Source: Azolla caroliniana
Taxonomy: Eukaryota; Plantae; Polypodiophyta
Length of the DNA stretch: 64,000 nucleotides
Direction: 5' to 3'
Assembly: GCA_043228905.1 (NCBI GenBank)
Contig: JBHGNT010000011.1
Location: 7,936,001-8,000,000, forward strand
In this document: one piece after another, positions 9,901 through 54,452 of the stretch
Layout: the number at the start of each line of letters is the position of its first letter
How positions within the stretch are numbered: position 1 is the first letter of the stretch
Position numbers and translations under genes: made by a program
The notes under the pieces: generated by a model
Told to the model about the DNA's origin: nothing
Databases searched by the model: none
What the model saw: only the letters and a program-made list of their open reading frames with translations

Positions 9901-12599
9901 CGTCGCGACTGACACACGCTTGTTTGGTGCGAGGGTTATAGCACTTATAACCCTTCTGCTCGTCCAAGTAACCGACCAAGATGCATTTCTCCGCCTTTGC
10001 ATCCAGCTTCCTCCTTTTCTCCTTCGGTACATGCACATACGCAATGCTACCGAACACCCTCAAGTTCGGCTTCGTTCCGAAATATAGCTCGTGCGCCGAC
10101 ACTTGGTCTCCGATTCGGTTCTGGATGTATACCGCAGTCCTTACTGCCTCGGCCCACTAGAACTTGGGCAAGCTCTTCTCCTCCAGCATTGCCCGTGCCG
10201 CCTCCACAACTGACCGATTCTTTCTCTCGGCCACGCCTTTCTGCTCTGGCGTGTATCTACAACTGAATTCGCGGCGAATTCCCATTTGTTGTAGGTAACC
10301 GTTGAATTGACCGGAAAAGTACTCTTTCCCGCCATCCGACCGCAGGCACTTGATCTTTCGTCCCGTTTCGGTTTCCACGAACCCTTTGAGGTCCCGAAAA
10401 CAGTCGAAGACTTCGCTCTTCCTCTCAATGAGGTAGATCCATGTGTGCCGCGTGTGGTCGTCAATGAAGGAGATGAAATATCGGCTCCCGCCAAGACTAA
10501 CGTTTTGTGTCGGCCCCCACACATCCGAGTGTATAAGGTCGAGCTTGTTCCGGCTCTGGTTTCGCTCGTTGGGGAAAGGAAGTCGGTGTTGCTTCCCGAG
10601 CTGGCAGGCTTCACAAATTTGTGCCTTTCGGCCACTAAATTTGGGCAATCCGAACACTACCCGTTTCGATTGCAGATCTTGAAGCCGCTGGTAGTTGACG
10701 TGGCCTATCCGTTTGTGCCACAAGTCGATGTCCAAATCGGTCTTTTGTCCCTTCGCGAACATTGCGGTGCTGCTGTCAGTGGAGTCGAGGATGAACATCC
10801 TCCCGTCTCTGCGCCCTTGCGCAATCACACAACCTTCTTCCTCAATGAAGCACCCGAGGTCTGTAAACCGAACCTCCATCCCTTGGTCGACGATCTGTCC
10901 GACCGAGACCAAGTTTTTCGTGATTGGTGGAACGTGCAACACGTTCATGAGTTTCCCTTTCTGCCCAACGTGGCTAAGGGGAACTTCTCCGACATTCGCG
11001 ATCGGATGCGGAGTGTCGTCTCCTGTTGCGACTATTCCAGGTTGTATCGGTTTTTCAAGGTACGAGAACCACTCCTTATGGCTCGTCATGTGGTTTGACG
11101 CGCCGGAGTCTACGTACCACACCTCGTCCGATCTCGGGGTGGTCTGCTTCATTGAGTTTGCTTCGTGTCTCGTCACGAAGGCAGTCCCTTCTCCGGCTCT
11201 CCCGGAGTCTTCGGCGTAGTGCGATCGCTGCCGATTTCCCTTGTCGGTATGTCTAGAGCCGTTCCCGAAACCAGTTCTCTCCGAATCGGCGCGCTTCTTC
11301 CAACACTCACTTTCCTTGTGGCCTTTCTTGCCACAGTACCAGCACTCCGCGATGGACTTCCCTTGCTGGTTCTCATCGTTTCAACTCCCCCTGTTTCCGG
11401 AGGGTCCGGAGTTGCTGTCGGCATCACTTCGGTGCCTTCTTTCTTGATCTCGTCGGCCGCCTCCATTGCGTGCCGACTCGCCTCGTCCTCCACGTCCACG
11501 GGGCCTATCTCCCTCCGTGTACAACATTCTGTTGTCGGTGTGCGTGCTTGTAGACGCACCCACGTGGTTCTCCTCTACCAGGAGCATCGACTATAAGTCG
11601 AAAAAGGACGGCGTATTCTCCCGGGTACACACAGCCGTTCGGAATGCTCCGAACTTCGACGCCAAACCTCCGAGACAGATCTGGACCATCTCGCTCTCCT
11701 CGATGTTCACCTCTATGGAGGCGAGGGAGTCGCAAATATCCTTGATCTTCGAGGTATAGTCCGCCACCGACAAGTCGCGTTGTTGTAGGTTGCTCAACTC
11801 CTGTCGGAGCTGAAGCTTCCTGGTTGTGGTGCTCGCGGCGAAAATCTTCTTCAGATTTTCCCACGCACCCTTCGGCGTCTTTGCATCCCGAACATAGCTC
11901 AATAGCTGTTCACCCACACACGACGCGAAGCAGTATAATACCCTGCTCGCCGATAGCTCCCACGACGGGAAGTCTCTGTGTGTCGATTCGGGTGCCGCGT
12001 CATTAGCTCCTTTGACATAACTCCAGTAGCCGTGCCCGAGCAGGTACTGGTGCATCTTGTAGGACCAAGACGCGTAGTTGGTTCTGTCGAGCTTCTCTGT
12101 TGGAAGCGAGCTCGCCATGCCTCTATCCATTGTTCTTCTTGTTCTTCTTCGTCAAGCTATGTCGGCTGCAGAGAGGTTCTCAACCCTCGCGCTCTGATAC
12201 CATGTAGAAAGTAGCGTGCGGAAGCAAGTATGAAGACCGAACAGAAGGAAGGAAACTCAGGTTCAATGGAGAGCTTAAGCTTACACGGTATACGCAGGAG
12301 AGACAGAGAGAGTGAGAGAGAAGACACAAAAAACTATATTCAACAATAATACTCAATCTCTGTACATAAGACGTGCTCAGTGAGCACTTTTATACAAGTC
12401 CTAGAAGGACTGACCGAAGTACTGACAGTACTTCAATGCTCATCAAGAGCTCCTACACTAACTCCCAAATATATTCCTCACGGAATATCTTTCCTAACGA
12501 CCTCCCGGTTTACGCACTCGGCCTAACCGATCGGTCCCAACCGATCCGGTCCTCGGCTTCTTCAGCCGATCCGGCCGATGTTGAGCTTGTCTCTCAACA
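6962..12599 (-). mobile_element. Full-length young Ty1/copia element (397-bp LTRs 6962-7358 and 12203-12599) with disrupted coding region
   Basis: Perfect TSD ATGTC; tRNA-iMet PBS 12191-12202; PPT 7359-7375; gag (12130 onward), CCHC, PR (VDSGAS), integrase (HSDVWG, SDGGKE, ERKN), RT (YVDD), RNase H; one LTR mismatch seen. Confidence 0.97.
7353..9242 (-). CDS. Copia RT-RNase H portion of pol with a ~160-aa C-terminal extension
   Basis: ORF track 629 aa: [43 protein letters not shown], then acidic and Arg-rich tail ending ELEGEC. Confidence 0.85.
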   Translation of the reverse strand: MYKVKYNTDGSVNRYKARLVAKGYAQKHGIDYDETFAPVAKMTTVRVLLTVAAAKGWHLHQMDVKNAFLQGDLEEQVYMVQPPGFHSGTNSSAICRLKKSLYGLKQAPRAWNAKITQQLRRMGFVTSKLDSSLFIWKGRLRPVSILLYVDDLVITGVDLGEIDRVKLQLAASFDMKDLGDLHYFLGIEVIRTPEGILISQRHYVLGMLFKLGMADCKSVSTPLDRTIKLHPDTGKVCDLTRFRLIVGSLIYLTITRPDLSYPVGVISQFMARPTEEHLQCAQRILRYVNGTKHRGLLYRTGAVAQLVGYTDVDWVGNAADRRSTSGYVFSLGSAVITWSSKKQPTVALSSTEVEYRGAAVATCEAIWLKRLLKDLQEEVSDPTTIYCDNLSSIKLAMNPVFHARTKHIEVHYHFVCERVLSGEVELQYVPTDRQTTNIFTKPLGLDKLRQFSGALGLPHLDVPNLRGRTDQAKQQERSGCRDTESAEEAEGGPTEKSESGQKGSSRRKEPKPTTHRGDDAIEGEKTEDELEIANWDKSENRSGVAESVQMFDSDTLNQPRPKRKKRQQEKRQHRNNRRANKGRMSRQADRKGRSARSRTGRGVRARREARRNRRCEDLEEPRVELEGEC

Positions 12600-13807: not shown

Positions 13808-14099
13808 CTAGGAGGCTTAAGACTAGTGTTGAACCGATTTGGTTCGAAATAATGCCTTGTGCCTCCATTTATAGTGTTCTCAGGAGTACTCCTGAAGTTT
13901 CTAGAATGTTCTGGATAAATCTGGAATATACATCAATTTTCTATAGTAAAACTTAAATGATAATAATATCCTTTGTATTACAACATAAGGTTATGGGTCA
14001 AGAGCTCTTGACTAATATACATCTGGAATATATTGATTGGTCAAGAGCTCGACCCATGTAACATAAGGTTATGGGTTCGAGTCTTACCATATCATGGCA
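13808..14099 (-). mobile_element. Partial LTR (5' part) of the chromovirus C family
   Basis: Reverse complement matches the LTRs at 27615 and 44706, including the HSE, TATA and AAATCGGTTCAA. Confidence 0.88.
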
Positions 14100-27274: not shown

Positions 27275-28448
27275 CTGTGTCGAATTTGGGAGGCTTTGTT
27301 CAGGGTTGGCTACGAACAGTGGTTGGGTGCAACAGACTAGTTCACCCGAATTCGTTCTAACTGAGTTTGAACACACGCCGAATCTGATTCGAAATTCGGG
27401 AGACTCGATCCGAACTAATACAGCTGACTAGCCTAGTCGAGTTGGACCCGAGTATGTCGATTCAATTTCGAATGTCGATTTTCGATATTTCCAAACACAG
27501 AGTATGTGCCAATTATCCAGGTTGATCCTGCTTTAGGTGACTACGACAATGAGAAGAACAGGTTCAGCTAATCTTTCCAAATGTTGTCTAGCCGAATGAA
27601 GCATGGGAGGGGGTTGTCATGATATGGCAAGACTCGAAACCATGAACTTATGTTACATGGGTCGAGCTCTTGACCATTAGACTATATGTTGTAATACAAA
27701 AGATATTATTTTCATTTAAGTTTTACTATAGAAAATTGATGTATATTCTAGATTTCTCTGGAACATTCTAGAAACTTCAAGAGTACTCCTCAGAACACTA
27801 TAAAAGGAGGCACAAGGCATTATTTCGAACCAAATCGGTTCAACACCAATCTTAAGCCTCCTAACTACTATTGTATATTCTCTTAACATAATATATATCT
27901 TTTGTTATCATCATTATCTCTCTCTCACTCACTCATTCTTTCCTTCTCTCAAGAGTTCTACACCTCCCTTAGTACTAATCCTCATCTTTTAGTACTAATT
28001 CCTTCTCTGTCTTAGTATTGTTCCTAATAGTACTTCTCTGTCTTAGTACTGTTCCTAACAATACTTGTCAGAACCAAGGATAAAAGATAGAGTGATGGAA
28101 GAAGGATAGAGAAGAATGGATGTATAAGATAGAGAAAGAAAGAGAATGGATACAAGATATGTAATGAGAGCTAAAGACTAGTGTTGATTCGAATTGATTT
28201 GAGAATACATGTATGCGCTTATTTATAGGTTCCTATAGAATAGCTTAGAGATTTCTAGAATGTTCTAGACCTAGAATGCTCTAGGACATTCTAGAACATT
28301 CTAGAATAATCTAGAGTTTTTACAATAATCAATGTAATACAAGAAGTAGCTTTTATTGTTTCATATAACAATAAGCTATCTTAATGGTTGAGGTTTTCAA
28401 GTATGAATTACAAGGTTCGAGGTTCAAGTCCGGGTGACGCCATAATGG

Positions 28449-31400
28449 TCATGTGTTCATGACACTATCCCTCCTTCGAGAACGCCGAGTGGAAGTCGGC
28501 GTTAACATTGTTGGGCCGGGCTTGTTTGGATAGTGACGATGGAAGTCGTTGACCAGAGCTTCAGCATTACAAACGTTATCGATGGGTTCCCAAGTGCAAT
28601 CACTCGGAGGATAACCAAGCCAATCAACTAGATAATAAAGCTTATTGCGCACAATCTTAGAATCGAGAATAGCAGCTACCTCGTATTCGGGGCCGTCCAC
28701 AAGTTGTACAGAAGGCGGTGGTGGCACGACACGATCAGGAATTAAAGAGGTGTGGCAAGGTTCCAAAAGAGAGCTATGAAAGACAGGGTGAAGCCGCATA
28801 TGTGCAGGAAGGTTAAGACGAAATGTTGCATCATTAATCTGCGCCGTGATGACAAAAGGACCTAAGCGTTGATAGTCAAGCTTAGCACACGGTCGGGTAG
28901 TCTTGATGTGACGACGAAGCAACCATACACGGTCACCAACCTTAAACGGAGACTTAAGACGATGTCGATCGGCATTGGTCTTATGGTGTGCTTGTGCTTT
29001 CTGAAGATGTGACGATAACTCGAACTGGATTTGTTGTAGTCGGTGGAGGTGATGCGCCGCACTAGGGTTTCGTGACACCTCGGGAAGATCCAGTATACAC
29101 CATCGAGGGTGGTTGCCGGTGTAGGCAAAGAAAGGTGTAACTTTGGTAGAAGAGTGGACCGTGTTGTTGTATGCAAACTCAGCAAGATGTAAAATTTTAC
29201 TCCAATCATCTTGTTGATAACTAATGAAACATCGAAGATATTGCTCGAGCGTTTGATTTGTGCGCTCTGTTTGTCCGTCAGTTTGTGGATGATAAGCCGA
29301 AGAGAGTTTGCAAGAGATTTTGAGGCCTGCCCATAGGTGCTTCCAAAAGTGTGAGATAAATTGAGGACCTCGATCACTAATAATATCATTCGGGAGACCA
29401 TGATGGTGAAACACTTCACGCATAATGAGATCTGCAGTTTCTTCACTATTGATGGTCTTTACACATGGTACAAAATGTGCCATCTTGGTGAACCGATCCA
29501 CTACTGTTAAAATAGTATCAAAGCCTTTGGAAGGTGGCAGATCCGTAATGAAATCCATAGAAATAGACTGCCATGGCTTGTTGGGAGGGGGTAATGGTTG
29601 TAGTAAGCCATAAGGGTGATGCCGGGGTATTTTGGCGCGACAGCAGGTGTCACAAGTGCGAACATAATCTTCGACAAATTTTTGCAAGTGAGGCCACCAA
29701 AATGAACGTTTCACCAGCTCAATGGTCTTGGAAATACCAAAATGTCCAGCCATGGGGGCATCATGACAATGTTCCAACACTTGAAATCGGGGTGATCCGT
29801 CGGGGAAGTAAAGGAGATTCTTGTAGAAGAGTAAACCATCTTGCCACTTGAAGTCCTTATAATGTTGAGATGACCCTGGCAATGTGGAGCAAGATGGACG
29901 ACTTGAACCACAGTGGGCTAAGACATCCTTAGCAAAATCATCCGAATGAAGTTGTTGCCGAATAGTGTCAAGAAGGGTAGAATCAAGTGGTGTGGCATAA
30001 ATTGTTATTACCTGTAGCTTTGATGGCCCGAGGAGAGTTTGCTTTTGATTGTCAAAGGTCGGATCTCCAGGTCGAAGTGCTAGATACAAACGCCGAGACA
30101 GAGCATCTGCTTTCCCTTGTTGTTTTCCGGGGCGAAAAATGATCTTGAAATCGAAACGCGTTAGAAATTGGGCCCACCGAGCTTGTCGTCTATTTAATAC
30201 TCGAGCTGTTTGAAAATATGTGAGATTTTTGTGATCACTATAAATGATAATCTGATGAGGTGAGCCTTCTAGAAAATGACGCCATTGCTCGAATGAGTCG
30301 ACCACAGCTAGTAACTCCTTGTCATGCACCTCATAGTTTATCTCCAAAACAGTAAACTTTCTCGAGTGAAACGCGACTGGATGTATCTGCCCGTCCTCAC
30401 CTGGTTGCGATAGGATACTCCCCAATGCAAAGTCTGATGCATCCGCCTCAATAGTAAATGGCTTTTCAGGATCAATATGTGCTAGGATGGGTGCTGATGT
30501 GAATGCCTCTTTTAGCTGCGTAAAAGCCTTGTCTGCTTCGATACTCCAAAAAAATGCTTGATTTTTCTTTGTGAGTTGAGTAAGGGGCAACACAATGCTT
30601 GAATAATTATGTATGAATTTGCATAGAAGTTCGCAAATCCGAGGAAACACTGGACATCCCGAACTGAGCATGGGGGTTTCCATTCCAATATTGTTTGGAC
30701 TTTTGCCGGGTCCATGAAAACACCCCGGGATGAAATAGTGTATCCCAAAAATTCGACTTGTTTGCAATCAAAACTGCATTTCTCAAGTTTGGCGTAAAGA
30801 CCATACTTCCTTAGGCGTTCAAGTACTTGCCGCACATGTATATCATGCTCCCCCTGTGTTTTAGAGTAAATCAATAGATCATCTAGGTAGATGATTAGAA
30901 AAATATCCAAGAAATCCCGGAAGATGTCATTTGCCATATGTTGGAATACGGCAGGTGCATTTGTGAGCCCGAAAGGCATGACTGTATACTCGAAATGACC
31001 ATACCGAGTACGAAATGCTGTTTTCCACTCATCTCCTGGCCGAATTCGAACAAGATTATATGCACCCCTTAGATCAATTTTGGTAAAATGCTTTGCCCCA
31101 CCAATGCGTTCTAAGAGATTGGAGATTAAAGGTAAAGCATACCTATTCCTTATGGTGACTTTATTTAAGCCTTGATAGTCCACGACCAAACGAAGGGAGC
31201 CATCCTTTTTCTTCACAAAAAAGATAGGAGCACCAGCTGGAGACTTTGAATGTCGAATAAACCCATGTGCAAGATTTTCCTCGATGTATTCTCGAAGAAC
31301 CTCAAGCTCAGTGGGTGATAAATTGTAAATCGGACCCCACGGAGGCTCTTTTCCTGGTTGGAGATCAATAGGACAGTCGTACGGCCGATGCTTTGGAAGA

Positions 31401-32110
31401 ACACTAGCTTTGACTTTGTCGAAAACATCAGCATAGTCTTGATATTTTTTGGGAATTTGGATGTCTGAATTCCCTTGAGTGACACTAGAAGGTGTCACTG
31501 ATACTGCAAATAAGAAAAGGTCCTCCTTGCCTCCCACTTGGTGCAATTATTGCAATGTGATGGCTGAAATTTGATGAGAAGGATATGGTGCATCGGTAGA
31601 ACTATATACTTTGGGAGGATAATCCCGAGTTCGATCCTTGACAATGATATTTTCTGCTAAAGGGCACCTAATTTCTCGCTTCCTCCAATCGATTCTAGGG
31701 TTATGTAGCTCGAACCATGGCAAACCGAGGACAATTGGATGCTCAGGACTACGGATTATGTTAAAGGAAACTACACATCCTAAATCACCCAAGAGTATGT
31801 GTATTGGCTCAGACTCTTCAAATATCTTCCCGGAAGCTATGGGGCGTCCATCAATCACTACTACGGAAACTGGACAAGGAAGTGTATGCAAGGATATTTG
31901 GTGTTTTTGGGCAAAATCTCTATCCATGAAACAAGAATTGGCTCCAGTATCTAAGAGGGCTTGGACTTGAAGTTGACAACTGGGTTTCCTACCTTGTACT
32001 AGGGCTGAGAAGACTCTACTAACATGCTTGGAAGAAATGGAACCCACACCAGGTTGTACATATCTAGGGTTGTCCAACCAAATGGCTCCTATTTTGGCCA
32101 GACTTATTCG
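28449..32110 (-). pseudogene. Pol of element D (PR-RT-RH-INT-chromodomain) with one premature stop (31547) and one frameshift (~30620)
   Basis: ORFs 31547..32077, 30512..31546 and 28449..30767. Confidence 0.9.
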
Positions 32111-33272
32111 TTTGACTCCTCTTCTAATTGGCTTAGGACTTCAAATTTATTGGACAAGGGTGGATTATTCATAATATTAGATTCACTAACTACTTCTAAA
32201 ATATTGGACTCATTTTTATTGTCATAGTGAATTTGATTTACCTGACGTCTCGGCCTACGGGAGCAATGAATGGCTATATGTCCTGGACCTCCACAATATA
32301 AGCACAAATGGTTTGCTCGACGACGTTGCTTCTCTTCGTCTGACAACGGTCCTCGTCGTTGAGTCATATCGATCTCCATGGGTGTAGGACTATCCATTGG
32401 GACTGGACTACGTGTTTGCCTTGGAGTTGGAGCAGGGCTATACATTTGCCTTGGGGATGATTGCGCCGTTACTGATGCATAAGTTGGTGTGAATCTAGAT
32501 CTTGTTATTTGTTGTTGTCGCTCACATCGACGCTCAAAAAGGCGATTATCACACCGTATTGCTCGACTAATAGCTTCTGTAAGTGACCTTGGATCCTCGG
32601 GGAAGGTAAGAAGTAAGTCTTTGACATCACTACGAAGGCCTGAACGGAATTGCTCCATTAGGGCTTGTTCATCCCAAGGAATATCGCTTGCGATGAGACG
32701 GAAATTGGCGGCATATGTTGAAGCTGGTTGATCACCTTGACGAAGTGTACGAATCTTGTTGATAGCTGTTCTCACCCCATCAGTATCTCCGAAACAAGCC
32801 TTAAATTCCTTGATAAATTCCTCGAAATTATTTAGTAGAGGAGAATTGGTCTCTAGCAATGGAGAAAACCACGACAACGCTATGCCAGTCAATAAAGTGC
32901 CCACTAGCCCGACTCGTGATGCATCTGTTGGATAACGTGCGGGATGCATTTGAATCACCAACCGTACTTGATTCAAAAAACCTCGGAAATGCGCCCTCGA
33001 CCCATCAAATTTAGCTGGGAAGCTAATTTTGGGCTCCTTGATAAGTCCATGACCTTCAACCCTTTGTTGTTGTAACATGACGATTGTCGACTCTAACTGT
33101 TCCACTCGTCGCGTGAACTCCTCTTGTTGTTGTTGCTTCTCTATAGTAACCTTTTGTAGATCCCCAAGTAGACGTTGATTCTCTACTTCAAGAGATGCGA
33201 ACTTGGATTTAAGGTTCTCCATTTCTGCAACAAGGGTGAGATATTCTTCTGAGTTAATGGCAGCCATGGTTT
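32104..33272 (-). CDS. Gag of element D (coiled coil, retrotransposon gag core, CCHC)
   Basis: MAAINSEEY...EPKISFPAKFDG...PMEID...CLYCGGPGHIAIHC; open frame; start coordinate approximate. Confidence 0.88.
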
Positions 33273-33292
33273 CAGGATGGTTATAAAGGAGG

Positions 33293-33335
<43 letters not shown>

Positions 33336-34430
33336 AATCAAACTGTCAGAACCAAGGATAAAAGATAGAGTGATGGAAGAAGGATAGAGAAGAATGGATG
33401 TATAAGATAGAGAAAGAAAGAGAATGGATACAAGATATGTAATGAGAGCTAAAGACTGGTGTTGATTCGAATTGATTTGAGAATACATGTATGCGCTTAT
33501 TTATAGGTTCCTATAGAATAGCTTAGAGATTTCTAGAATGTTCTAGACCTAGAATGCTCTAGGACATTCTAGAACATTCTAGAATAATCTAGAGTTTTTA
33601 CGATAATCAATGTAATACAAGAAGTAGCTTTTATTGTTTCATATAATAATAAGCTATCTTAATGGTTGAGGTTTTCAAGTATGAATTACAAGGTTCGAGG
33701 TTCAAGTCCGGGTGACGCCATAATGGTCATGTGTTCATGACAATACTTCTCTGTCATAGTACTGTTCCTAACAGTTTGAACCGATTTTCTCCTTCCTTCT
33801 CTTCCTTTATCTTCTTAATTCCCACTCCCTTCATACTAATATCTTATTCCTCTTTTCTCTCATATTATGGCCATTGTTAGCGCTCAAGAATATCAATATG
33901 TTTTTTCGGAGTTGCAATGCTTGAAAGAGAAGCTTCTCGCATTGGAACAAGAAAATCAATGACTGTTGGGGGAGCTTCAACAAATATCCTTAGAGAAGCA
34001 GCAAACGCAACAACATGGGGAACTAGCGTTACACGTGCAACAACACGAAGGAACCATACTCGTGATGCAACAACAAGGACCTAGTATGCAAGGGGTTCAT
34101 AAAGAACCCAAGATTGGCCTTCCCATGAAATTCGATGCAACACAATCACAGTTTAGAGGATTTCTTAATCAAGTACGATTAGTCATTCAAATGCATACTT
34201 CCCGATATCCCACCGATGCATCATGAGTGGGTTTAGTAGGCACGTTGTTAAGTGGCTCAACTTTGGCATGGTTCGCTCTCGTTGTTAGAAAAGGAATCTA
34301 CTTTACTAAACAATTTTGAAGAGTTTTTAAGTGAGTTTAAAGCCTGTTTTAGAGATACTGATAGCATAAGGACAACAATCAACAAAATCCGACGATTACA
34401 TCAAGGTAATCGTCCAGCCTCCGCATACGC

Positions 34431-37400
34431 TGTCGTGAAGATTTTCGGCGATAGTGTGTAAATTGTGAGGAACATACAAAATCGAGTGTGGTTCTTCTCA
34501 CAAGATATGAAACAATAATAGTGAAGATACTATTCTAAATAAGTTTAATATCTTGGTACTAAAAGATGGAGGTTTTCAAGAGCTTTCTAATGCACTTTAC
34601 TACATAAGAAACGGACAAATAAGTGTCAAGTTATGTGGGTATAAACATTGCAAAGAAGAAGAGAAAAACAAAATTGTGAGATATCCCACATAGACAAGAC
34701 AAATAAGGATCCCAGAGTATATAAGAAGACCAAAATCTCATATTATATCTATGTGTTTGGAGCATAGAAAGATTGAGTTGTATGACTTGATGAGTGGATG
34801 CAGCCAGCCAAGTTCATTGGTTTTGGACAAATCCGAACGGATCCAGACCAGCAGACAGAAGGCGACGGAACCAGAACCGGATCAGGCTACAGACTAGACG
34901 GATGCGGATCGGATGGACCGGACGGGTAGATTTAGTGTAATATGCACTTAAACATTTGTAAAAACAAGACTAAAAATATTTGGAGGTCAACTGAATTTCG
35001 GGAGAGGGGGAATGAAAAAACCCATGGAAGATGTTAAGGCGACTGATGTGGATGCGATGCACTATGCTGCATTAGCCAAAATAAGAGTCAGGAAAGACAA
35101 AATTGAAGTTGCTAGACCATGAGCAAAGTTGTGGTCTACCGTTCTCGAGTATGAGAACAAGGGAAAGGTCACTTCGAACAAGGTCAAGCTTGCAGACCAA
35201 AGTGTGTAAAGCATAACTGGATGGTCGGATCCTGTGGATGACAACACCATACTCGTGGAAGTGATGTGTGACAACCACAAGGTGTTCGTGGATGAAAAGA
35301 GAAAAAGAATGGAAGGGTAAGGCAACCCATCAAAAAGACATGAAGGAAGGAGCACGAAAAAGAAAGAAGATGCAGAAACGAGTCGAGCTTTACAAACGGA
35401 GGGAGACTCAAGTCGAAAAGGGGAGTCGAGCAAACGAGTCGAGGAAACAGTTCGGCCCGTGAAGGTTGGTGTCAAAGACCCCACTTGGAAGACAAGAATT
35501 ATGCCTACCTATAAGCTAAGATCGAACATAGAGCAAATGACAGATCTGAAGAAGATTCTCGAGGAACGTGTTCTCGATAGCCACGTGACCTTGTCCTTGA
35601 GGGAATTGCTCGGCATTACGAAGGAGTTCCATGATACGATCGTGGACCTTGCGAAGAGAAAAAGGCAATAGTCGGACGAGGAAGAAGAAAAGCCGTTAAA
35701 AGCAAAAACAAATGTCATAACGATGGCAAGGGACGAAGTCGATGAAGATTTGGTGGACAGCCACTATACTCGACCTCATTGGGCACGAGTGACAATGGAG
35801 ACGCCGGTGAAGATCGGGGAGAAGAAAGAGACCATGGTAGCCTTAATCGACCATCGCTCGGAGATCAACCTCATGTTGACTGAGTTCTACAAAAAAGGAA
35901 GATGGCCAATTAACACAAACCACGGATGGAAGATTCGAGCGGCAACAAAAACCACAGAGGACTTGTACGGAGCTTGTCCAAATGTTAAAGTCACGATTCG
36001 GGATGTGAAGATGGATCAACACTTCTTCGTGCAAGAATTGGCTTCGCATCCTGTCATCCTAGGACAACCGTATATCACATCATCTTGGATGGAGACCAAG
36101 GTGTTCGATAATGGAGCAGCCTTCGCACGGATCAAGAGTCTTGACAACCAAAGATCTGTTCAATTCCTAACGGTGTGGGCTAATCATGAAAGAAATCGAG
36201 ATACCCTTCGAGGCGACTCCTCAGATTTTTAGAGTGGACTATTGAAGCTTGGGGCACAAATAGTCCTAGCAATCACAAGTCCCCACAAGAAATTGAAGCG
36301 CGTGGATTGCAAGGAGAAGCAACATGTGTCACACCTAGTGGCGCATGTAAACTAGTACTACCCAACAAGGACAAGCATTGGATACAAGACTTCGAGAAGA
36401 TGCTGAAAGAAGAAAACATAATCAAAGAAGAAGAATTCGTGACTTGTATTATGGAACAGGCCTCATTTAACGACACCATTGGCGAAATCGAGGAAGTCGT
36501 GGACTTAAGCTATCTTCACGATCAACACATGATTTCGATTTACTTCGTCAACATGTACGCTATAATTGATGAATATCATCGAGGCATCTTGATGGAGGAA
36601 GTTGGAGTCAACACAAAATATAAAACGGTGGATAGAAAGATGAAGCCAGTTGCAATTCCGCTACCAAAAGATAGTTGGCAAAAAATGAAGGAAGTCGCTA
36701 ATGATCCAAGCCTAAGGGATCCAAAGACAATAGGTCATGTCTTCACCAAAGAGACGAAAAGAAAGCTAGGAGTTGGGAAGGAGGATTTCCTCCTCCCTAA
36801 AGAGGAGCGAATGTTCCGTGGAATGCTTGAAAGACATGGGAAGGCTTTTGCATTTTTCCCACAAGAAATCGGATGTGCTGATCCAAGGATGATAGAACCA
36901 ATGGTGATCTTCACGGTGCCGCACCTACCTTGGAATTTGAAACCGAAACCGGTTCCGAGAGCACACCTACCGAAGTTGATCGAGCTCTTAAAGGAGAAGG
37001 TGGATCTGGGAATTTTGGAACCATCGAATGCTCCCTATTCTAATAGGTGGTTCACGGTGTCGAAGAAGAATGATCATTGCGATTCATCCAAGATCTTCAA
37101 CCCGTCAACAAGGTGACAATTTGGAATGTTGGAATCGGTCCAAGTGTGGATGAATTTGCCGAAGCGTTTGTGGGCTAGTCTATCTACTCCATTGGCGATC
37201 TCTACTCTGGATACAATCAATTCCAGTTGGTGGTCGACAATCGTCACATTACAACTATGAGGACTCCGATCGGGCTTGTGCGGATGTGTACCTTACCTCA
37301 AGGTGCAACGAACTCGTTGGCTCATATGGTGAATGCCATGAACAAGGTCTTGAAGGATTGCATCCCGGGCATCACGATGCCATTCTTGGATGATATTCCA

Positions 37401-40400
37401 ATAAAAGGATGTTCGGATGAGGACAAGGATGAATCGAAAGATAAGGAAGGGTGTAGAAAGTTCGTCGTGGATCATAGGAAAGATTGCGAGAAGGTGCTCC
37501 AAAGACTCGAAGATGCAAATTTGACATTTTCAGGAGAAAATTCTGCATTTGGGCAACCAGAGATCTTGGTGGTAGGCCACTTGTGTGGAGCATACGGCCA
37601 GAAGCCTTCGCCATCCAAGGTGAACGTGATCCAGGACATGAAAGAAGAATGCCTAACCCAAATGGAGGTTTGAAGGTTCCTTCGAGCATGCGCGTTTTAT
37701 CATATCTAGATTCTGCACTACGCTCATGTCGCCGGGCCATTATATGGATTGCTAAAGAAAAGAATGAAGTTCGAATGGTGAGACGAGCATACAAACGCGA
37801 CGCGAAGATTAAAGAAACTACTTCTTGAAGCCCCAACACTAAGGAAGGCTGACTATACCGAAGGGAAGCCGATTTATGTGACTCTAGATACGAGCCCAAC
37901 TGGAATTGGGTGGGTCATTAACCAAGAAGGAGAAGATAATGTGTGGTATGCCATCTGGTTAGAAGCAAAGGTTCTCAGGGAGCGACAACAAAGATACGCC
38001 CAAGTCAAGCGGGAACTTTGGGGTATTGTGTCTGCAATGAAGATGGACAAAGACTACCTGATCGGGTCGGAAGTGATAATTGAAACAGATTGTCTCCCAA
38101 TCCTCGGGATGATCTCAGGATGTGCGACACCAGATCTAGCTATGCTAAGGTGGATCGCCTATATCAAGTCTTTAAACCCAGAGATCCGCCATATTGCAGG
38201 AAAGAAGAACGTCATGGTTGACGCGTTGTCGAGGGCAAGATTTGAGAATGAAAGTGACATGTTTTCGGAAGATGAAGACGTCACCCTCGACTTCTTCAAG
38301 ATGGCTCGACTATTGGCGGAAGACAAGGACACGCTAACCCTCTACGCCTTCAACGAGGACGAGGACGAAGGAGAGTGGTTAGTGATCGGCAGATTCTTAA
38401 GAACAATGACGGTGGATGTTTCGTTGACGAAAGAGGAGGCTCTACGAATATGGAAGAAAGCTTACCAATACTTCCTCAAGGGAGGATCCCTCTGGTGACA
38501 CCCAAAAAGAAGGACAAGAATGCCACGTTGAGTGGTGGTGAAGAAAGAAGAGCAAGTGACGCTGATGACCGAATTCCACGAGAGTCCTTGGGCGGGTTAT
38601 AGAGGATCATGGGCGACGTTCGAAAAGTTGAAGGAAAAGTACTGGTGGCCAAGCATGTACAAAGATGTACTCCATTTCGTGTCCACATGCGAAACTTGCC
38701 AAGTACATTCGAACATACGTCATCGTGATGAGTTACGGTCAACATACCCGCTCACCATACACTTCAAATGGATGGTGGATCTGGTCTCGACAATGGTAGT
38801 GGGATAAATGAAGTATTTAGTACTAGCAAGAGAAGACCTGACAAATCAAGTGGAAGGACGAGCCTTGGCAAATAAGACGACGTCAGCTGTTTGGAAATTT
38901 CTACTCGAAGAGGTTGTCTACCGATACGGATGTGTCGGAAAGATAGTGATTGATCGAGGGGAGTTGGATGCACGCGAAGCAATAGAGCTCTTCGATCAAC
39001 TAGGCGTGAAGCTCTCCCTCACAACTACCTACAATCCAGAAACGAATGGGAAGATCAAGTGAGGGCATGGACCAATCGTCAAAGCAATTGTACGACCATG
39101 CAACGGTCGAGTCGGGAACTAGCCACGACTATTGCCCTATCCCTTGTGGGCCGATAGAACTACACACAGTTCAATGACAGGGTATATGCCAACAGAGCTT
39201 ATGTATGGACAGAAGCCGGTAATGCCCATCGAAAGGACGATCGCCTCATGGGTAGCGATACCATGGGAGAACGAGATGAGTCGAGAAGAATTATTAGCGC
39301 CACGGATAAGGCAAGTTGAAAGGAGACCTGAAGATCTAGAAAAAGCATGAAAGATGATGGAGGTAGCTTGAGTGAAGAACAAAATTTGGTTCGACAAGAT
39401 GCATCGACTGTGTCCCAAGAAGATTGAAGAAGGAGATTGGGTATTGGACTACGATAGCAGCCTTGACAATCAACACATGACAACAAGGAAGTTCGCAAGA
39501 AGATGGTTCGGACCGTATGTGGTGACAAGTGCCAACGACAATGCCACATACCACCTTGCGGAGCTAGACGGATCAAGGTTGGCCGTGCCCATTGCAGGCA
39601 AAAGAGCTACATTCGGGACTCGAAGACGCCGAAGGATGCTTGGGGAAATTTGAAAAACATTTTCGTCGCAAGCACCACAGCCAGAAAGCTCCAACCCATG
39701 CAAGAGTTGAGCAATGTTCGACAACGAGATATGTATATGGCTGATTACACCTCCAAGCTCAAGGACATTTGCGACTCTCTCACCTCCGTCGATGTAAACC
39801 TCGAGGAGGACGAAATGGTGTAGGTCTGCCTTGGAGGCTTATCGTCGAAATTTGGAGCTTTCCGAACTACTGTCTATACAAGGGAGAATAAAGATTTTCA
39901 AGAAAAGACGAGACGAGGATCCTGACCTCGACCACCTCGACGATGAAGATAGTAGGACTGAGCCTACAGACTTGAGTTATGTGAACAAGGACATGGAGGA
40001 ATTTGATTGATCATCATAGCCGAAATCTCACACTCTCTCCTCTTGGCACATGCCGAAGGACATGCGGTTTGGTGGGGGTGGATGTCGTGAATATTTTCGG
40101 CGATAGTGTGTAAATTGGTTTTGGACTAATCTGGACGGAACCGGTGACCAGATGGCAACGAAACCGGATGGCGACCGGACAGCTACGGAACCGGATCGGG
40201 AAGCAGACTGGACGGAACCGGCTTGGGTTGCGGACCGGAACTGGAATGACTTGACAAATGGATGTAGCCAAGTTCATTGGTTTTGGACAAATATGGACGG
40301 AACCGGACTGACGGACCGACGGAAGGCGACGGTACCAGATTGGGATGCAGACCAGACGAAACCAACTCGGGTTGTGGACCGAAACCGGGTCGGAATGAGG

Positions 40401-41119
40401 GCCAGAAGGAACCAGATGACATGTGGACCCGGGCCGGATCGAACGGATTGGACAGGATGGGACGGATGTGGATCGGATGGACCGGACGAATAGATTTATC
40501 GCAATGCACGATGTCTTGAAGTTTTCCAGTGTGAAACGAACAAAATCATCTAGTTCTTTGGAGGTCAAGTGAAGGTGTAATCTGCACTTAAACATTTGTA
40601 AAAACAAGACTAAAAAGCCTAGTAAAAAGAAAATTTGTATACAAAGGGGTGCAAGTAAGAATTTGAACCTTGCACCTCCAAGTTGAAAGTCAATAGGCTT
40701 ATCACTAAGCCAAGTCATATCTGCAAAAGTTTTACTTTGATCATTTTACATGAAAATTCTCATACATGAGAGCTTAGATGATGACATGGCAAACATGCAT
40801 TTTGTGCATTACGTACATGTCTTGCACCCTCACATGCACCATATGCATGGGGGCATCTATAAAACAGTGGAGGAATAAAGCAGGAGAAACTAATGAAAAA
40901 TTTGGGAAAAATAAGAAACTTGTTATGCTATTGTTGATGTATCTTGTCTCTCAAATCTAAAGTTAAGCATTTAATCTCTTTCTCCATATCAATCTCTCTC
41001 TATTTCAATCTATCTTAAATACTTTCTTGGTAAAGCTAGTGCAAACTTTGAATCCTTCCGGTCCAAAACCCCGGTGATTCCGCCTCACGATCCGCACGTA
41101 GTGACGGATCTTCACGACA
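34431..41119 (+). mobile_element. Gypsy element E (tRNA-Trp family): truncated 5' LTR 34431-~34990, gag C-term, PR, RT (FLDD), RH, INT, 3' LTR 40083-41119
   Basis: TGTCGTGAA...TTCACGACA; TSD ACGC/ATGC restores host gag PASAYAANF; LPQGATNS..PFLDD; IVIDRGEL; WFGPY; no chromodomain. Confidence 0.93.
39607..39889 (+). other. Captured copia gag fragment inside the integrase tail of E
   Basis: YIRDSKTPKDAWGNLKNIFVAST..KLKDICDSL..CLGGLSSKFGAFRT; no LTR or TSD. Confidence 0.85.
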
Positions 41120-44100
41120 ATGCTGCAAATTTTCGCCTACTCGCCTCCAAAATCCCCTGGGATGACCAAGCACTTATGGAGCAATTTCGTTATGGTCTAC
41201 ATAACAATGTTAAGGATTTACTCTTGACCTTCCCCGAAGAACCAAAGTCATTGACAGAAGCAATTCGTTGCGCGGTGAGATGCGAAAACCGTCTTTTCGA
41301 ATGACATTCGGAACATCAGTTCCAGATGCCAGGGCAAGATCAGAGCCCACCTACACCTCAGTGGTAGCAAAAACTTTTCCAAGGGTGTCATATAATGCAA
41401 AAACTTTAGTGAATACTCCAACTCCGATGGAAATTGACACTACACATCGTCGCGGTCCATTATCGGAAGAAGAAAAGCAGCGACACCGAGCAAATTGACT
41501 ATGTCTTTATTGAGGTGGACCAGGGCATATTGCAGTGAATTGTCTCCATAGGCCAAGAAGACAGGTGAACCAAATAGTTGCTAGTTCTAATTGTACTAAA
41601 CCTAAGTCTATTTCAGTAGGAATATCCGATAGTCCTAATAGTACTAATAGCCCAAATCTCTCGAACAAATTTGATGTCCTTAGTTAGTTAGAAGAAGAGT
41701 TAATCGCCTAAGTCCAACCAAAATAGGAGTCATTTGGTTGGACAGCCCTAGATCTGTGCAACCCATTAGTGGTTTCATTCTCTCCAAGCAAGTTAGCAAT
41801 GTGTTCTTAGCCCACGTAACAGTTAGTACTAAAAGTACCTCTCTAGTACATGTCTCAACACTCCTAGATTCTAGAGCTAATTCTTGCTTCATGGATAGGA
41901 ATTTTGCCAAAGTTCATTAGATATCCCTAAGAAAATTCCCATGTCCAGCCTCTGTAGTAGTCATTGATGGTCGTCCCATTGCTTTCAGAAATATCATAGA
42001 AGAGTCGGAGCCCGTTAATATTTTCCTAGATAATTTTTTGTGTGTAGTATCCTTTAATATAATTAGTATCCTAGAACATCCCATTGTTTTGGGATTACCA
42101 TGGTTCGAATTACATAACCCAGTTATAGATTAGAGAACAAGGGAAATCCGGCATCGACAAACCCGAGGATCTACTCATAAGATTGCAACCATTTCGCTAC
42201 ATCAGTTGCGTGAGGAAGGACACAAGGAAGAAATGTTTCTCTTCGCAGTATCAGTAAAACCCTCCAACACCACTAAAGAGGAGTCCATCGTTCAACTTCC
42301 AGAGAAGTATCGTCATTATGCCAATGTGTTCGATAAAGAAAAAGCCAATACGCTTCCTCACCATCGCCCGTATGATTGCCCCATCGATTTACAACCGAGA
42401 AAAGAGCCACCATGGGGATCGACTAGGAGACACCATTCGCACCAGATATGGGCACTTCAAGTATACGGTCATGTCATTCGGCCTCACTAATGCACTAACA
42501 GTCTTCCAGCACATGGCAAATGATATATTCCGAGATCTCTTGGATGTTTGTTTGATAATCTATTTGGATGATCTACCAGTTTATTCGAAGACCCAAGAAG
42601 AGCATGATTCTCATGTACTGTTAGTACTAAAACGACTTCGAGAACATGGTCTTTATGCAAAGCTGGAATAATGTAGTTTCGGGTGCAACCAGGTAGAATT
42701 TATGCACTATATCATTTCCTCGGAAGGCATCTCCATGGATCCAGCTAAGGTCAAAACAGGGGTAGAGTGGCAGACCCTGCGTTCGTTGCGAGATGTGCAA
42801 TGCTTTTTAGGCTTGCCAATTGCTACCACAAGTTTATATAGTATTACTCAAAGCTTGTTCTGCCTCTCACACAACTCACCAGGAAGGCACAATCGTTCGT
42901 TTGGTCTAAATAAGTAGACATGGCTTTTGAGAATCTTAAGAAGGCATTTACATCAGCTCCTATTCTTGCTCATGTTGATCCGGAAAAACCATTCATCATC
43001 GAAGCAGACACGTCGGATTTCGCGTTGGGTAGCATTCTGTCACAACAAGGCGATGATGAAAAGCTTCATCCTGTGGCTTTCCACTCACACAAGTTTGACG
43101 TCGCCGAAATCAACTATGAAATTCATGGTAAGGAGCTATTCGCAATAGTGGGCTCTTTTACACAATGGATGCATTTTCTAGAGGGGTCTTCTCATCAAGT
43201 CACCGTATTCAGTGATCACAAAAACCTTGCCTACTTTCAAAATGCTCATGTGTTAAATCGATGTCAAGCTTGGTGGGCCCAATTCCTCACTCGTTTCGAC
43301 TTCAAAATTACATATTGTCCGGGGAAGCAACAAGGGAAGGTAGATGCATTATCACGATGCTCGTATCTAGCACCGCGTCTTGGCGAGCCAGCTTTCGATA
43401 ACCAAAAGTAAGTAATCCTGGGACCAGCATGACTGCAAGCAACACAGGTCTTCGGTATGCCCTTGGATTCCCACGTTATCGATACCATACGTGAGGACTT
43501 GAAGATAGATGCTTTCGCCCAAGCCATTCTAGCACAAATTGATCCCTCTCAAGCATCTTGTTCACAGTCGCAACAACCAAGTACGGACTATCGACAATTT
43601 GAATGTCATGATGGATTACTATTCTTTAAGAAACTCTTGTATGTTCCTAATGGTTCTTGTCATCTTCGAGTAGTCCAAAACTGTCATCACACATATACAG
43701 CTAGGCATTTTGGTAGTACTAAAACATTAGATTTAGTACAACGATCATTCTGGTGGCCCCATATGCGACAATTTGTCGAAGGTTTTGTTCGGACTTGAAA
43801 TTCATCTCGAAATTCTAGAAGCACCTCTTTAAAATGCTCAAGGTCACTTGTAACCTCTCCTCCCGCCACCACCCGCTACCACCCGCAAACAGACGGCCAA
43901 GCAGAACGAACAAATCAAACGTTGGAGCAGTATCTTCAGTGCTTTCTAAGCTATCATCAAGATAACTAGGCGGATATTCTCCACTTTGCTAAATTTGTGT
44001 ATAATAACTCTGTCCACTCATCGACAAAGGTTACACCATTTTATGCTTATACGGGTTGTCACCCACGGTGGTGTGTATTTGAAACCCTTGAGTTACCCAC

Positions 44101-45001
44101 AAATCCTTGCACAGAGGATCGTTTGGAGCGGTTACGCAAGATACAAGCAGATTTATTTACTGATCTACAGCAAGCTCAACAAATACACAACGTTTACGCG
44201 GATCGTCATCGGCTTCCATCTAGTTTTAACATTGGAGATCAGGTATGGCTACTACGACGACACATCAAGACTACTCGCCCATGTAAGAAGTTGGATTATC
44301 GGCGATTAGGTCCGTTCCGTATTATCGGAAAAATTAATGATGTCACTTTTCATCTCGATCTACCTCCACAACTTCAAATACATCCGGTGTTTCATAGTTC
44401 TCTCCTCAAACACTATCAAGATAGCACCATCCCAAGTCGTATTAAACAACCTCCACCCCCGATCGAACTTGAAGATGGACCTGAGTACGAGGTTGCCGCC
44501 ATCCTCGATTCCAAGATTGTTCGCAAGAATCTCTACTATTTAGTCGATTGGCTAGGATATAGTCCCAACGAGCGTACTTGGGAACCAATAGAGAATGTGA
44601 CCAATGCTCGTGCTCTTCTTGAAGACTTCCATCGTCAATATCCAAACAAACCGGGTCCTCAATCCAAAACGACTCGTGACACTCGTCGTTTTAAAGGGGG
44701 GATAGTGTCATGATATGGCAAAACTCGAACCCATGACCTTATGTTACATGGGTCAAGCTCTTGACCATTAGAATATATGTTACAATACAAAGGATATTAT
44801 TTTCATTTAAATTTTACTATAGAAAATTGATGTATATTCCAGATTTCTCTAGAACATTCTAGAAACTTCAGGAACTCTCCTGAGAACACTATAAAAGGAG
44901 GCACAAGGCATTATTTCGAACCAAATCGGTTCAACGCCGGTCTTAAGCCTCCTAGCTACTATTGTATATTCTCTTAACATAATATATATCTTTTGTTATC
45001 A

Positions 45002-45061
<60 letters not shown>

Positions 45062-45517
45062 ACTCACTCACTCTTTCCTTTTCTCGAGAGTTCTACACCT
45101 CCCTTAGTACTAATCCTCATCTTTTACTACTAATTCCTTCTCTGTCTTAGTATTGTTCCTGATAGGGATTGTTCATGGAGCCTAGACTACTACGAGTGAT
45201 TACGACGAGTGATTGACTAGCGTCAGGTGACCTACTCGATTGTTGTCTAATCCAATGTAGTACGGCTAAGGCAGAGCTTGTGAAGCGAAATCTCACTCCG
45301 AGTGGCTACAATCACAGGAGTGAAGTGCAGCTGATTGGCTCACTTCAATGGTGATTTAGAACATGGAGTGCAGATTTTGCTTGTGTTTCTCTTCGCGAAA
45401 AACGATCTTGTAGAAGGTTGCCAACCGAGATCTTCATGGTGTACAAAAGAAGAGTTGTTGATGGAGGTAAAGTAGACAACGACAGCAGAATCGAGAGAAC
45501 CAAGCTTTGATACCAGA

Positions 45518-52919: not shown

Positions 52920-54452
52920 GGATGCAAGTCATATCTTGTTGCATGCAATGGAGATTTCCAACATTGTTAGCCTATTTATGCAACAATCTTTTATCTCATC
53001 AAGCTTGATAAGATCAACTTCTGTCAATTTGTTTATTTCCATCAACATTTGTTGTTTAAATTTATAAACCAATCCCATTGTAGCACCTTCCCTATTAGTC
53101 GAACAAATAAGCTTTAAAATGGGTTTGCAGACCTTCACAATCATCTTTACATCTACACAAAAGTTAGCACCTAGTACAATTGAAACCATCTCCTCTACTT
53201 TGTGTTTTACCACCAATCCAATTGCACCATTCTTCTTAAACCACCATATACTCTATCATCCAACAAATTTGCTAACACAAGAAATTTGTACGCAAACCTC
53301 TAGTCATAGAAGGTTTAAGTAAGTCTTTCCCACTAAACTTGCGAAACATGGCCAACGCATATTGTTTTGTGGTTATGAAACCACTAATCTTCATAGTTGA
53401 TCGCAAAATGGCATCAATCCAAGCACATTTGGCAAAATCCTCCAACCACAAATCAACACAATGGCAAGTGCATCTAGTGTAAATATTGATGGCCACTCAT
53501 TTTCTATCGTATGTTCTACAACCACACAATTTGCAAAATTATCCATACAAACTTGAAATACATTTGATGGTCCATTTTCAAGAATAACATCTTTCCAAAA
53601 AAAAAAAATGTATTCACTTGACTTGACATGACCACTTGTATCTATTGATGTCAAAAACATTGTGCCATGTAATGAAGAGTTTAAAACATTAATAATTGGT
53701 TGGGATCTAGTGTCTGACCAAACATCAAAATATCTTATGCAATTGATACATAGAAGGTGCTTTAAATGAAGGACCCACTTTTGCAGCAACCATAAACATA
53801 TCATGGAAAAATGAAATTTCCACCTTCCCATGTGGAATATCTTCTGCATAAAAAAAATCTTGCAATAGCCTCTTTTGCATTTTTCCTCAATGCCAATTCA
53901 AAAGACATTTGTAATGAACCGCTTGTCTCTAATTTCTAGTTTTTGGTAGCCATTTTATTCATTGAAATAGAAGTAGAAATAGAGACATCTCGTAGACGCA
54001 TTAGCATTAGCATTATGTAGGGTTTGAGACATTGATGGATGCTCAACAAATTCCTTCTGTTTGTATCGTAGTAGTAAGCCATATTTGTACTTACCTATAT
54101 ATCTTGTGTTTAGGTCCCTCTAACCTTACTAATTTACAAGATGCCATTGTGTAAATGTGCTTGTCCCAATAAGAAGTCTTACATTCCACCTCACGTAAAC
54201 ACTATTGCAACTTGCATTTGTTTGTACATTTGAAATTGAGTGATCATTTGCATGAACTATTGAATTTCTGAATTGACTCTTCACAGTATCACTTACATTT
54301 TTCTACACCTTGTCGTCTTATTCCCAATAAATGGGCCCTAATTCAATGAGGGCCACCAACATAGACATGATTGGATCAAATGAATGAATTCCCCTTGCAT
54401 TCTTGTTTTGAATTAGTACATGTTCCCACTCTAGGTCCTTTTGTCTACCCAT
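52920..54452 (-). pseudogene. hAT transposase relic (BED finger plus DUF659-type core)
   Basis: MGRQKDLEWEH..RIRAHLLGI..C; DVWSDTRSQPIINV..FLTSIDTSGHVKSSEYI..VFQVCMDN..CTCHCVDLWLED; many frameshifts. Confidence 0.85.

What the first reader, a model, noticed from the sequence alone, without database searches (positions are those of the whole stretch)
44852..44896. Perfect heat-shock element arrays next to the TATA box in both chromovirus LTR families
Seen: C 3' LTR has GAAcaTTCtaGAAacTTCagGAA (five alternating nGAAn units, 44852-44874) about 15 nt before TATAAAA; four units at 27761-27778; also present in the 13808-14099 copy. D LTRs have TTCtaGAAtgTTC (33531-33543) and TTCtaGAAcaTTCtaGAA (33567-33584) upstream of their TATA. 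Known: three or more such units bind HSF trimers, and the heat-activated plant model ONSEN is a copia. Inference: a heat-inducible gypsy lineage, with D young and nearly intact.
Basis: partly seen in the sequence, partly recalled or inferred. Interest (0 to 1): 0.75.

Follow-up and report, generated by a model that had tools for sequence, protein, structure and literature searches.

The report
Heat-shock promoters in fern chromoviruses
Several abundant, recently spreading jumping-gene families in this fern genome carry conserved heat-shock-factor binding motifs just in front of their promoter, so they are likely switched on by heat, as the Arabidopsis element ONSEN is, though no expression data were available to show it.

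Summary
The arrays are real and at the stated coordinates. All 7 arrays of three or more nGAAn units in the window lie in C or D LTRs. The fifth unit at 44872-44874 is nearly private to this copy; the C family norm is four. The elements are Tcn1-like, self-priming chromoviruses in a fern (likely Azolla). The self-primer places the inferred start 32-33 nt after TATA. The array is family-wide and is the most conserved U3 block across diverged C copies (2 of 156 core letters differ, against 221 of 1886 elsewhere). It also occurs in two more families (F, G) with otherwise different LTRs and matches the host's small-HSP promoter motif. Sister families with the same LTR layout lack it (0 of 30). One four-unit pattern occurs 5,372 times genome-wide. 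HSF-driven heat induction is likely (0.68) but untested. The window's D copy is young, but its pol is broken. The mechanism is known (ONSEN; flatworm Ty3). The plant chromovirus host, the multi-family depth and the copy number were not found in my searches. The scan had not noted this on other DNA.

The parts
44852..44874 (+). HSE array in the C 3' LTR: four family-wide perfect nGAAn units (44852-44869) plus a nearly copy-private fifth; part of an in-phase 8-step block from 44837 that includes near-match units
44890..44896 (+). TATA box of the C 3' LTR
   Evidence: fixed distance to the self-primer across families
44923..44934 (+). Self-primer (12 nt, complement of the PBS); its first base is the inferred transcription start, 33 nt after TATA
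   Evidence: start site inferred
44706..45164 (+). C 3' LTR (TG start; last bases altered), preceded by a polypurine tract at 44693-44705; 5-bp TSD with one mismatch at 27610-27614 / 45165-45169
27615..28065 (+). C 5' LTR, first part (HSE 27761-27778, TATA 27799, self-primer 27832-27843); split in U5 by the insertion of D
33748..33787 (+). End of the C 5' LTR (to 33773) and its non-tRNA PBS (33776-33787)
33774..44705 (+). C internal region (gag-pol with chromodomain), decayed: several frameshifts, and an unrelated gypsy element inserted at about 34431-41119. LTR K2P distance 0.070
33344..33742 (-). D 5' LTR with HSE arrays at 33567-33584 (4 units) and 33531-33543 (3 units), TATA at 33505, self-primer 33473-33462; PBS at 33341-33330; TSD 28061-28065 / 33743-33747
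28066..28464 (-). D 3' LTR with the same arrays (28289-28306, 28253-28265); K2P distance to the 5' LTR 0.0076
28449..33345 (-). D gag and pol (PR-RT-RH-IN-chromodomain); pol broken by a stop near 31547 and a frameshift within 30548-30725
13808..14099 (-). Truncated C-type LTR with a four-unit HSE (13894-13911), inserted in other repeats

Best explanation
The LTRs of four Tcn1-like chromovirus families (C, D, F, G) in this fern carry conserved heat-shock element arrays just upstream of TATA, which host HSF trimers likely bind on heat stress to switch on transcription of the elements. SHOWN: the arrays, their place before TATA, their conservation within and between families, their absence from sister families, the same motif in host sHSP promoters, host HSF genes with the usual recognition helix, and very recent insertions (identical LTR pairs). 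INFERRED: (1) transcription starts at the self-primer, 32-33 nt after TATA, putting the C core at about -71 to -54; (2) one or two HSF trimers bind each 3-5 unit array; (3) heat gives a burst of full-length RNA from copies not fully silenced; (4) the RNA self-primes reverse transcription, Tf1-style, and the chromodomain integrase inserts mostly into repeat-rich chromatin (D sits inside C's LTR); (5) selection on the transposing lineages keeps the arrays, which in D and G grow and shrink by 10-bp steps that keep the register. The finding's own array is in the 3' LTR of a dead copy and could at most drive read-out transcription into neighbouring repeats.
For: Non-random. Family-wide: at least 3 units in 29 of 30 C and 30 of 30 D best LTR matches (chosen by LTR similarity, so biased). 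Chosen instead by integrase: 29 of 30 close and 18 of 20 diverged D copies, 30 of 30 C copies. In a 600-kb evenly spaced sample, 8 of 8 C/F/G LTRs keep at least 3 units. Constraint: in 13 C-lineage LTRs (pairwise 73-96%), 2 of 156 core letters differ, against 7 of 78 spacer letters and 221 of 1886 other U3 letters; variable columns 2 of 12 against 77 of 146, Fisher p=0.03. Depth: C and D integrases are about 71% alike and their LTRs do not align, yet both have the array, as do F, G and D relatives at 84% from other assemblies (L101, L102: 6+3 units). Specificity: 0 of 30 copies of sister families E/E2/E3/H, and no array of 3 units in 10 other LTR stretches of the window. In the 130 nt before TATA, all 10 C/D/F/G-type copies have 4-11 near-perfect three-unit sites against at most 0.09 in shuffles; 9 of 10 others have none. 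Host control: 52 such sites upstream of 29 sHSP loci, against 8.8 shuffled and 3 downstream, with the same preferred spacers; 10 HSF DNA-binding matches. Promoter geometry: 11-12 nt primer/PBS complements covary between families at 31-33 nt from TATA. Precedent: 4P HREs go with up to 1000-fold heat induction in Brassicaceae copia (PMC5059998, passages).
Against: No expression, binding or methylation data for this genome. An HSE is not sufficient: two HSE-bearing copia families in Macrostomum did not respond (PMC12801592, passages). The chromodomain gypsy RLG1 of Physcomitrium is repressed by heat (PMC7466625, passages; its LTR was not available to check). Other U3 stretches are about as conserved as the perfect core (18-nt windows at -60 to -57 from TATA score 6-9 against 9), though they fall in or next to the same in-phase block. 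The aligned copies are related, so cell counts overstate significance. Units made by tandem duplication are alike without selection. Family F has only 3 perfect units among many imperfect ones. [quoted passage not shown]
Confidence: 0.68

Rival explanations
1. The arrays are HSF sites, but their output is not heat induction: they serve a developmentally or otherwise stress-activated HSF (meristem, spore formation, oxidative stress, desiccation), or class B HSFs repress through them.
For: All plant HSFs read the same motif (recalled). The genome has 10 HSF matches and only 1 showed an activator-type motif in a narrow scan. Sister families carry other tandem enhancer-like motifs (CATGCA-rich repeats), so U3 swaps may tune tissue rather than temperature.
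Against: Perfect 4-5 unit arrays close to TATA are the type tied to strong heat induction in ONSEN, TERESTRA and the flatworm families (PMC5059998, PMC12801592; passages), and they match the host sHSP promoters.
Confidence: 0.15
2. The conserved block is functional but not as an HSE: a 10-bp-periodic TCTAGA palindrome that positions a nucleosome or binds another factor, with the nGAAn match as a by-product.
For: The central TA spacer is nearly fixed (19 of 22 tail-to-tail sites). F has a long 10-bp-periodic CTAG array with few perfect units.
Against: TA is also the commonest spacer in host sHSP promoters (14 of 28). The head-to-head spacer varies (six kinds) while TTC and GAA are held. C keeps four perfect units with a single TCTAGA.
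Confidence: 0.1
3. The arrays are neutral: a slippage-built minisatellite in an A+T-rich U3, carried to high copy number by elements that amplified for other reasons.
For: The unit number varies by 10-bp steps among D copies, and one close D copy (L211) lacks the whole array. Any LTR 18-mer would reach thousands of copies, so the counts show copy number, not function.
Against: The core is conserved against about 12% divergence elsewhere in U3. The array persists in four families at 64-71% integrase identity whose LTRs otherwise differ, always just before TATA.
Confidence: 0.07

Closest known systems
ONSEN/COPIA78 and other heat-responsive Brassicaceae copia (COPIA37, TERESTRA, ROMANIAT5); PMC3907296 and PMC5059998, passages read
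   Same: 3P/4P nGAAn arrays in the LTR; long retention of the array; growth by duplication of a unit; in D, F and G few CG/CHG sites around the array (0-1 CG, 0-2 CHG in 130 nt).
   Different: Ty3/gypsy chromovirus, self-primed, in a fern; thousands of LTRs against 8 ONSEN copies in Col-0; four families rather than one; whole LTRs do contain CG and CHG; HSF binding and induction are shown for ONSEN and only inferred here.
HSE-bearing Ty3/Mdg4 families of the flatworm Macrostomum lignano (Mag, CsRN1, Gmr1/Osvaldo); PMC12801592, passages read
   Same: Ty3-type elements with canonical HSEs upstream of the start site; a reporter test there showed the HSE is needed.
   Different: Animal, low-copy (4-20 copies), independent gains in separate clades; here a plant chromovirus clade with high copy number and possibly one ancestral gain.
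Tcn1-clade chromoviruses of mosses and clubmosses (PpatensLTR, SM-Tcn1; RLG1); PMC2864245, PMC6317226, PMC7466625, passages read
   Same: Chromodomain integrase, about 5.3-5.8 kb, no tRNA PBS, predicted self-priming, 5-bp TSD, nesting in repeat-rich DNA.
   Different: Fern host (the passages read list mosses and clubmosses only); HSE arrays not mentioned in those passages; RLG1 is heat-repressed; RLG1 and RLG2 primers do not match the window.
Cryptococcus TCN3 and TCN12; PMC12810828 and PMC9942834, passages read
   Same: Fungal LTR elements mobilised at 37 C with putative HSEs in the LTR.
   Different: The TCN12 site is a single imperfect step-type HSE and Hsf1 binding is untested; relation to the fern clade was not tested.
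Helitron-borne HSEs of Caenorhabditis; PMC6927752, abstract and outline read
   Same: A transposon supplies a large share of the genome's HSEs.
   Different: DNA transposon; HSF occupancy and effects on nearby genes shown there, untested here.

Membership tests
Heat-activated HSE-bearing LTR retrotransposon (ONSEN-like) | At least 3 adjacent alternating nGAAn units in U3 upstream of TATA | tested here: met
Heat-activated HSE-bearing LTR retrotransposon (ONSEN-like) | Array conserved across copies and lineages | tested here: met
   (2 of 156 against 221 of 1886)
Heat-activated HSE-bearing LTR retrotransposon (ONSEN-like) | HSF binds the array | not testable with these tools
   Host HSFs with the conserved recognition helix exist; binding needs EMSA, DAP-seq or ChIP
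Heat-activated HSE-bearing LTR retrotransposon (ONSEN-like) | Transcription and extrachromosomal DNA rise on heat | not testable with these tools
   No heat-stress data could be examined
ONSEN/COPIA78 itself | Ty1/copia domain order | tested here: not met
   PR-RT-RH-IN-chromodomain order, RVT_1
ONSEN/COPIA78 itself | [quoted passage not shown] | tested here: not met
   4-13 CG outside the array region in every HSE family; C has 4-9 CHG next to the array; only the D, F, G array regions are nearly free
Chromovirus (Ty3/gypsy) | Chromodomain at the integrase C-terminus, gypsy domain order | tested here: met
   PF00385 in both C and D (E about 1e-14)
Tcn1 clade / Tf1-sushi group | No tRNA PBS; at least 10-nt complement of the PBS inside the 5' LTR (self-priming) | tested here: met
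   11-12 nt perfect complements in 9 of 13 copies examined, covarying between families; 8-9 nt in 3 (among them the window's D, whose PBS differs at one place); none in L309
Tcn1 clade / Tf1-sushi group | Phylogenetic placement with named Tcn1 references | not tested
   No named reference sequence was available; trees hold unnamed relatives only. A named hit at 50% is from a chytrid fungus

The most novel reading that the evidence does not exclude
An HSE array gained once near the base of the fern Tcn1 chromovirus clade was the innovation behind its recent takeover. Heat-triggered families (C, D, F, G) are still inserting, while sister families with other enhancers have decayed, and their LTRs now supply most of the strong HSEs in the genome (thousands), enough to compete for HSF or to bring new genes into the heat response of a heat-exposed floating fern.
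Probability: 0.2. Interest if true: 0.78.

Novelty: new variant of a known kind. Interest (0 to 1): 0.52.

Why it matters
The validated cases in the papers I read are low-copy: ONSEN-type copia in crucifers and Ty3 families in one flatworm. Here the same cis-element sits in high-copy, very recently amplified plant chromoviruses, across several families, with natural HSE-less sisters in the same genome as built-in controls. That makes testable whether heat coupling drives large-scale genome expansion and whether thousands of transposon HSEs affect the host heat response. It also records Tcn1-like self-priming elements in a fern. Until induction is shown, it remains a motif-based prediction of a known mechanism.

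Tried and rejected
Physcomitrium patens as host: rejected. RLG1/RLG2 primers show no match with fewer than 6 mismatches, and a host sHSP is closest to named fern proteins. Expression: no RNA holder listed; laying 4 contig-only runs showed only that related copies exist, some with an extra 10-bp unit; neither is evidence on expression. HSE as a trait of all chromoviruses: not supported. Only 2 of 79 metagenome loci have arrays in the LTR, and 2 of 11 viral loci have a single three-unit site about 365 nt downstream of the integrase; many contigs end before the LTR. Single origin of the array: unresolved. The quick trees need 2 changes, and the AU test does not reject one clade (p=0.153); the careful tree did not finish. 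ONSEN-like CG/CHG-free LTR: not met. Genome-wide pattern counts were not used as evidence of function. Absolute ages were not computed, as I have no fern substitution rate. Earlier findings of the scan held nothing on these HSEs. Rice Go-on was checked as a gypsy precedent: the preprint calls it Copia. Bamboo PHRE1/2 are gypsy, and the text has no 'heat shock element'.

Full report
OBSERVATION. A scan for maximal runs of alternating GAA/TTC at 5-nt steps finds 7 arrays of at least 3 units in the window: 13894-13911 (4), 27761-27778 (4), 28253-28265 (3), 28289-28306 (4), 33531-33543 (3), 33567-33584 (4) and 44852-44874 (5). All lie in C or D LTRs. 100 dinucleotide shuffles give 1.22, 0.02 and 0 arrays of at least 3, 4 and 5 units. 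Ten other LTR stretches of the window have none.

ANATOMY. C runs 27615-45164 (+) with a 5-bp TSD (one mismatch). Its 5' LTR is split by D, and its internal region by another gypsy element (about 34431-41119) and by frameshifts; K2P between its LTRs is 0.070 over the first 301 nt. D runs 33742-28066 (-), with a perfect TSD and LTR K2P 0.0076, about nine times younger; its pol has a stop near 31547 and a frameshift within 30548-30725. Both have gypsy domain order with a chromodomain. Neither has a tRNA PBS. Instead the bases after the 5' LTR are complementary to 11-12 nt inside the LTR, and this pair differs but covaries between families (perfect 11-12 nt in 9 of 13 copies). This is the self-priming predicted for the Tcn1 clade (PMC6317226, passages). 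In Tf1-type priming the primer is the 5' end of the RNA (recalled), so it marks the start site: 31-33 nt after TATA in those 9 copies, a usual plant distance (recalled). This supports the TATA independently and puts the C core at about -71 to -54.

HOST. The genome has 523 Mb in 1,503 contigs, at least 22 of them of 12-37 Mb. A host small HSP is closest to named proteins of Adiantum and Ceratopteris. It is a fern; Azolla is likely from size and n=22 (recalled), not shown. It has 10 HSF DNA-binding matches with the conserved recognition helix and 33 HSP20 matches. 10 of 30 sHSP loci have a perfect array of at least 3 units in the 1.5 kb upstream of the domain. Near-perfect three-unit sites number 52 in 600-nt upstream windows of 29 loci (L094 dropped as an apparent duplicate of L093), against 8.8 shuffled and 3 downstream; the preferred spacers are those of the LTRs.

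FAMILY-WIDE AND CONSERVED. At least 3 units occur in 29 of 30 C and 30 of 30 D best LTR matches; 19 of those D copies have a five-unit array, one 10-bp step more than the window's D. Only the window's own C copy has five units, and its fifth unit is seen in 2 of 26 copies printed. Selecting by integrase instead: 29 of 30 close and 18 of 20 diverged D copies, 30 of 30 C copies (28 with at least four units, read by eye). In 60 evenly spaced 10-kb stretches, 8 of 8 C/F/G LTRs keep at least 3 units, 2 E/H LTRs have none, and 5 of 6 arrays of at least 4 units lie in these LTRs. Across 13 C-lineage LTRs (mean identity 84%), 2 of 156 core letters, 7 of 78 spacer letters and 221 of 1886 other U3 letters differ (columns 2 of 12 against 77 of 146, p=0.03; copies are related). 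The most conserved windows cover an in-phase block of eight steps just before TATA and its upstream edge.

WIDER CLADE. Searching with a sister integrase revealed more families. Of 20 whole elements fetched (17 chosen for long pol frames, 3 as E-type), all 17 carry arrays: F (6 copies, 3 perfect plus many imperfect units), G (3 copies, 4+4 to 6), C (5), D (3). Six of the 17 have identical LTR pairs (one over a 321-nt alignment); the 3 E-type have no array and no frame over 689 aa. E/E2/E3/H share the TATA, self-primer and spacing but carry other tandem motifs in U3: 0 of 30 have an array, and their open frames at the match are at most 548 aa. This is a lead, not a census. D relatives at 84% integrase identity in other assemblies have 6+3 units; other relatives do not have them. 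Quick trees group C with D (SH-aLRT 94-96) and F with G (98). The E group falls among them with weak support, giving one gain and one loss or two gains; a single HSE clade is not rejected (p-AU 0.153). Genome-wide, GAAnnTTCTAGAAnnTTC occurs 5,372 times (reversed control 3) and TTCTAGAAnnTTCTAGAA 1,802 times (control 0); the sets overlap, and the counts reflect copy number.

MECHANISM. The best reading is HSF-driven heat induction (0.68). Arrays, position, conservation and host match are shown; binding, induction and transposition after heat are inferred. Against: an HSE was not sufficient in two flatworm families, RLG1 of moss is heat-repressed, the LTRs keep CG and CHG sites, and no expression data could be examined. 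Rivals: HSF-dependent but not heat-induced (0.15), another function of the 10-bp palindrome (0.10), neutral minisatellite (0.07). The finding's own array is in the 3' LTR of a dead copy.

COMPARISON AND NOVELTY. It works like ONSEN (HSFA2 binding, CG/CHG-free LTR; PMC3907296, passages) and the 3P/4P families of PMC5059998 (passages) but is not a member. Ty3-type precedent exists in Macrostomum (PMC12801592, passages) and, as putative sites, in Cryptococcus (PMC12810828, PMC9942834, passages). RLG2 of Physcomitrium is a heat-induced gypsy (PMC7466625, passages, outline and two supplements). PMC2864245, PMC8656106 and 10.1101/317479 were read as passages, and PMC6927752 as abstract and outline. 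Searches listed no paper on HSE arrays in fern or plant chromovirus LTRs; only the top 5-30 hits of each were seen, the library is open-access only, and supplements were mostly not seen. Verdict: a real, conserved cis-element; a new variant of a known kind; interest 0.52.

Noticed in passing
window 27832-27843 with 33776-33787; 33473-33462 with 33341-33330; loci L102, L104, L105, L110, L301-L320: Self-primer and PBS covary across families at a fixed distance from TATA: good comparative support for Tf1-type self-priming in fern Tcn1-like elements, a group the passages read place in mosses and clubmosses only.
   Followed up: yes
L103, L104, L251-L280, L318-L320: Sister families keep the LTR frame but have other tandem U3 motifs (CATGCA-rich, resembling RY elements from recall; a different repeat in L275), which suggests modular enhancer swapping. 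The copies seen are decayed.
   Followed up: partly
window 28061-33747 and 27610-27614 / 45165-45169: Nesting: D is inserted in the U5 of C's 5' LTR; C is inserted right after a purine-rich tract and before a TG-starting sequence, apparently the PPT-LTR junction of an older element.
   Followed up: partly
L211: A close D copy (98% integrase identity) lacks the whole HSE block in its 3' LTR but keeps TATA and the self-primer: a natural control.
   Followed up: no
window 6962-12599 (-): A copia element with 99.7% identical LTRs and no HSE units in them: an equally young element without the array.
   Followed up: partly
window 34431-41119: A gypsy element with TG...CA ends inserted in C's gag; not classified. 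Other notes of this scan describe PPT-less gypsy families in this genome; I did not check whether this is one.
   Followed up: no
L072-L091 (G000:C9, about 17.9-18.3 Mb): A tandem cluster of at least 15 sHSP genes, apparently with an intron, several with perfect HSEs upstream.
   Followed up: partly
L329:5008-5031: A five-unit array in the random sample outside the known LTR families; not identified.
   Followed up: no
L315: A D copy with one 1,674-aa frame, probably gag and pol in one frame, whereas two other copies have a separate 1,230-aa pol.
   Followed up: no
window 53391-53897 (-): DUF659 match, likely a hAT transposase fragment (assignment recalled).
   Followed up: no
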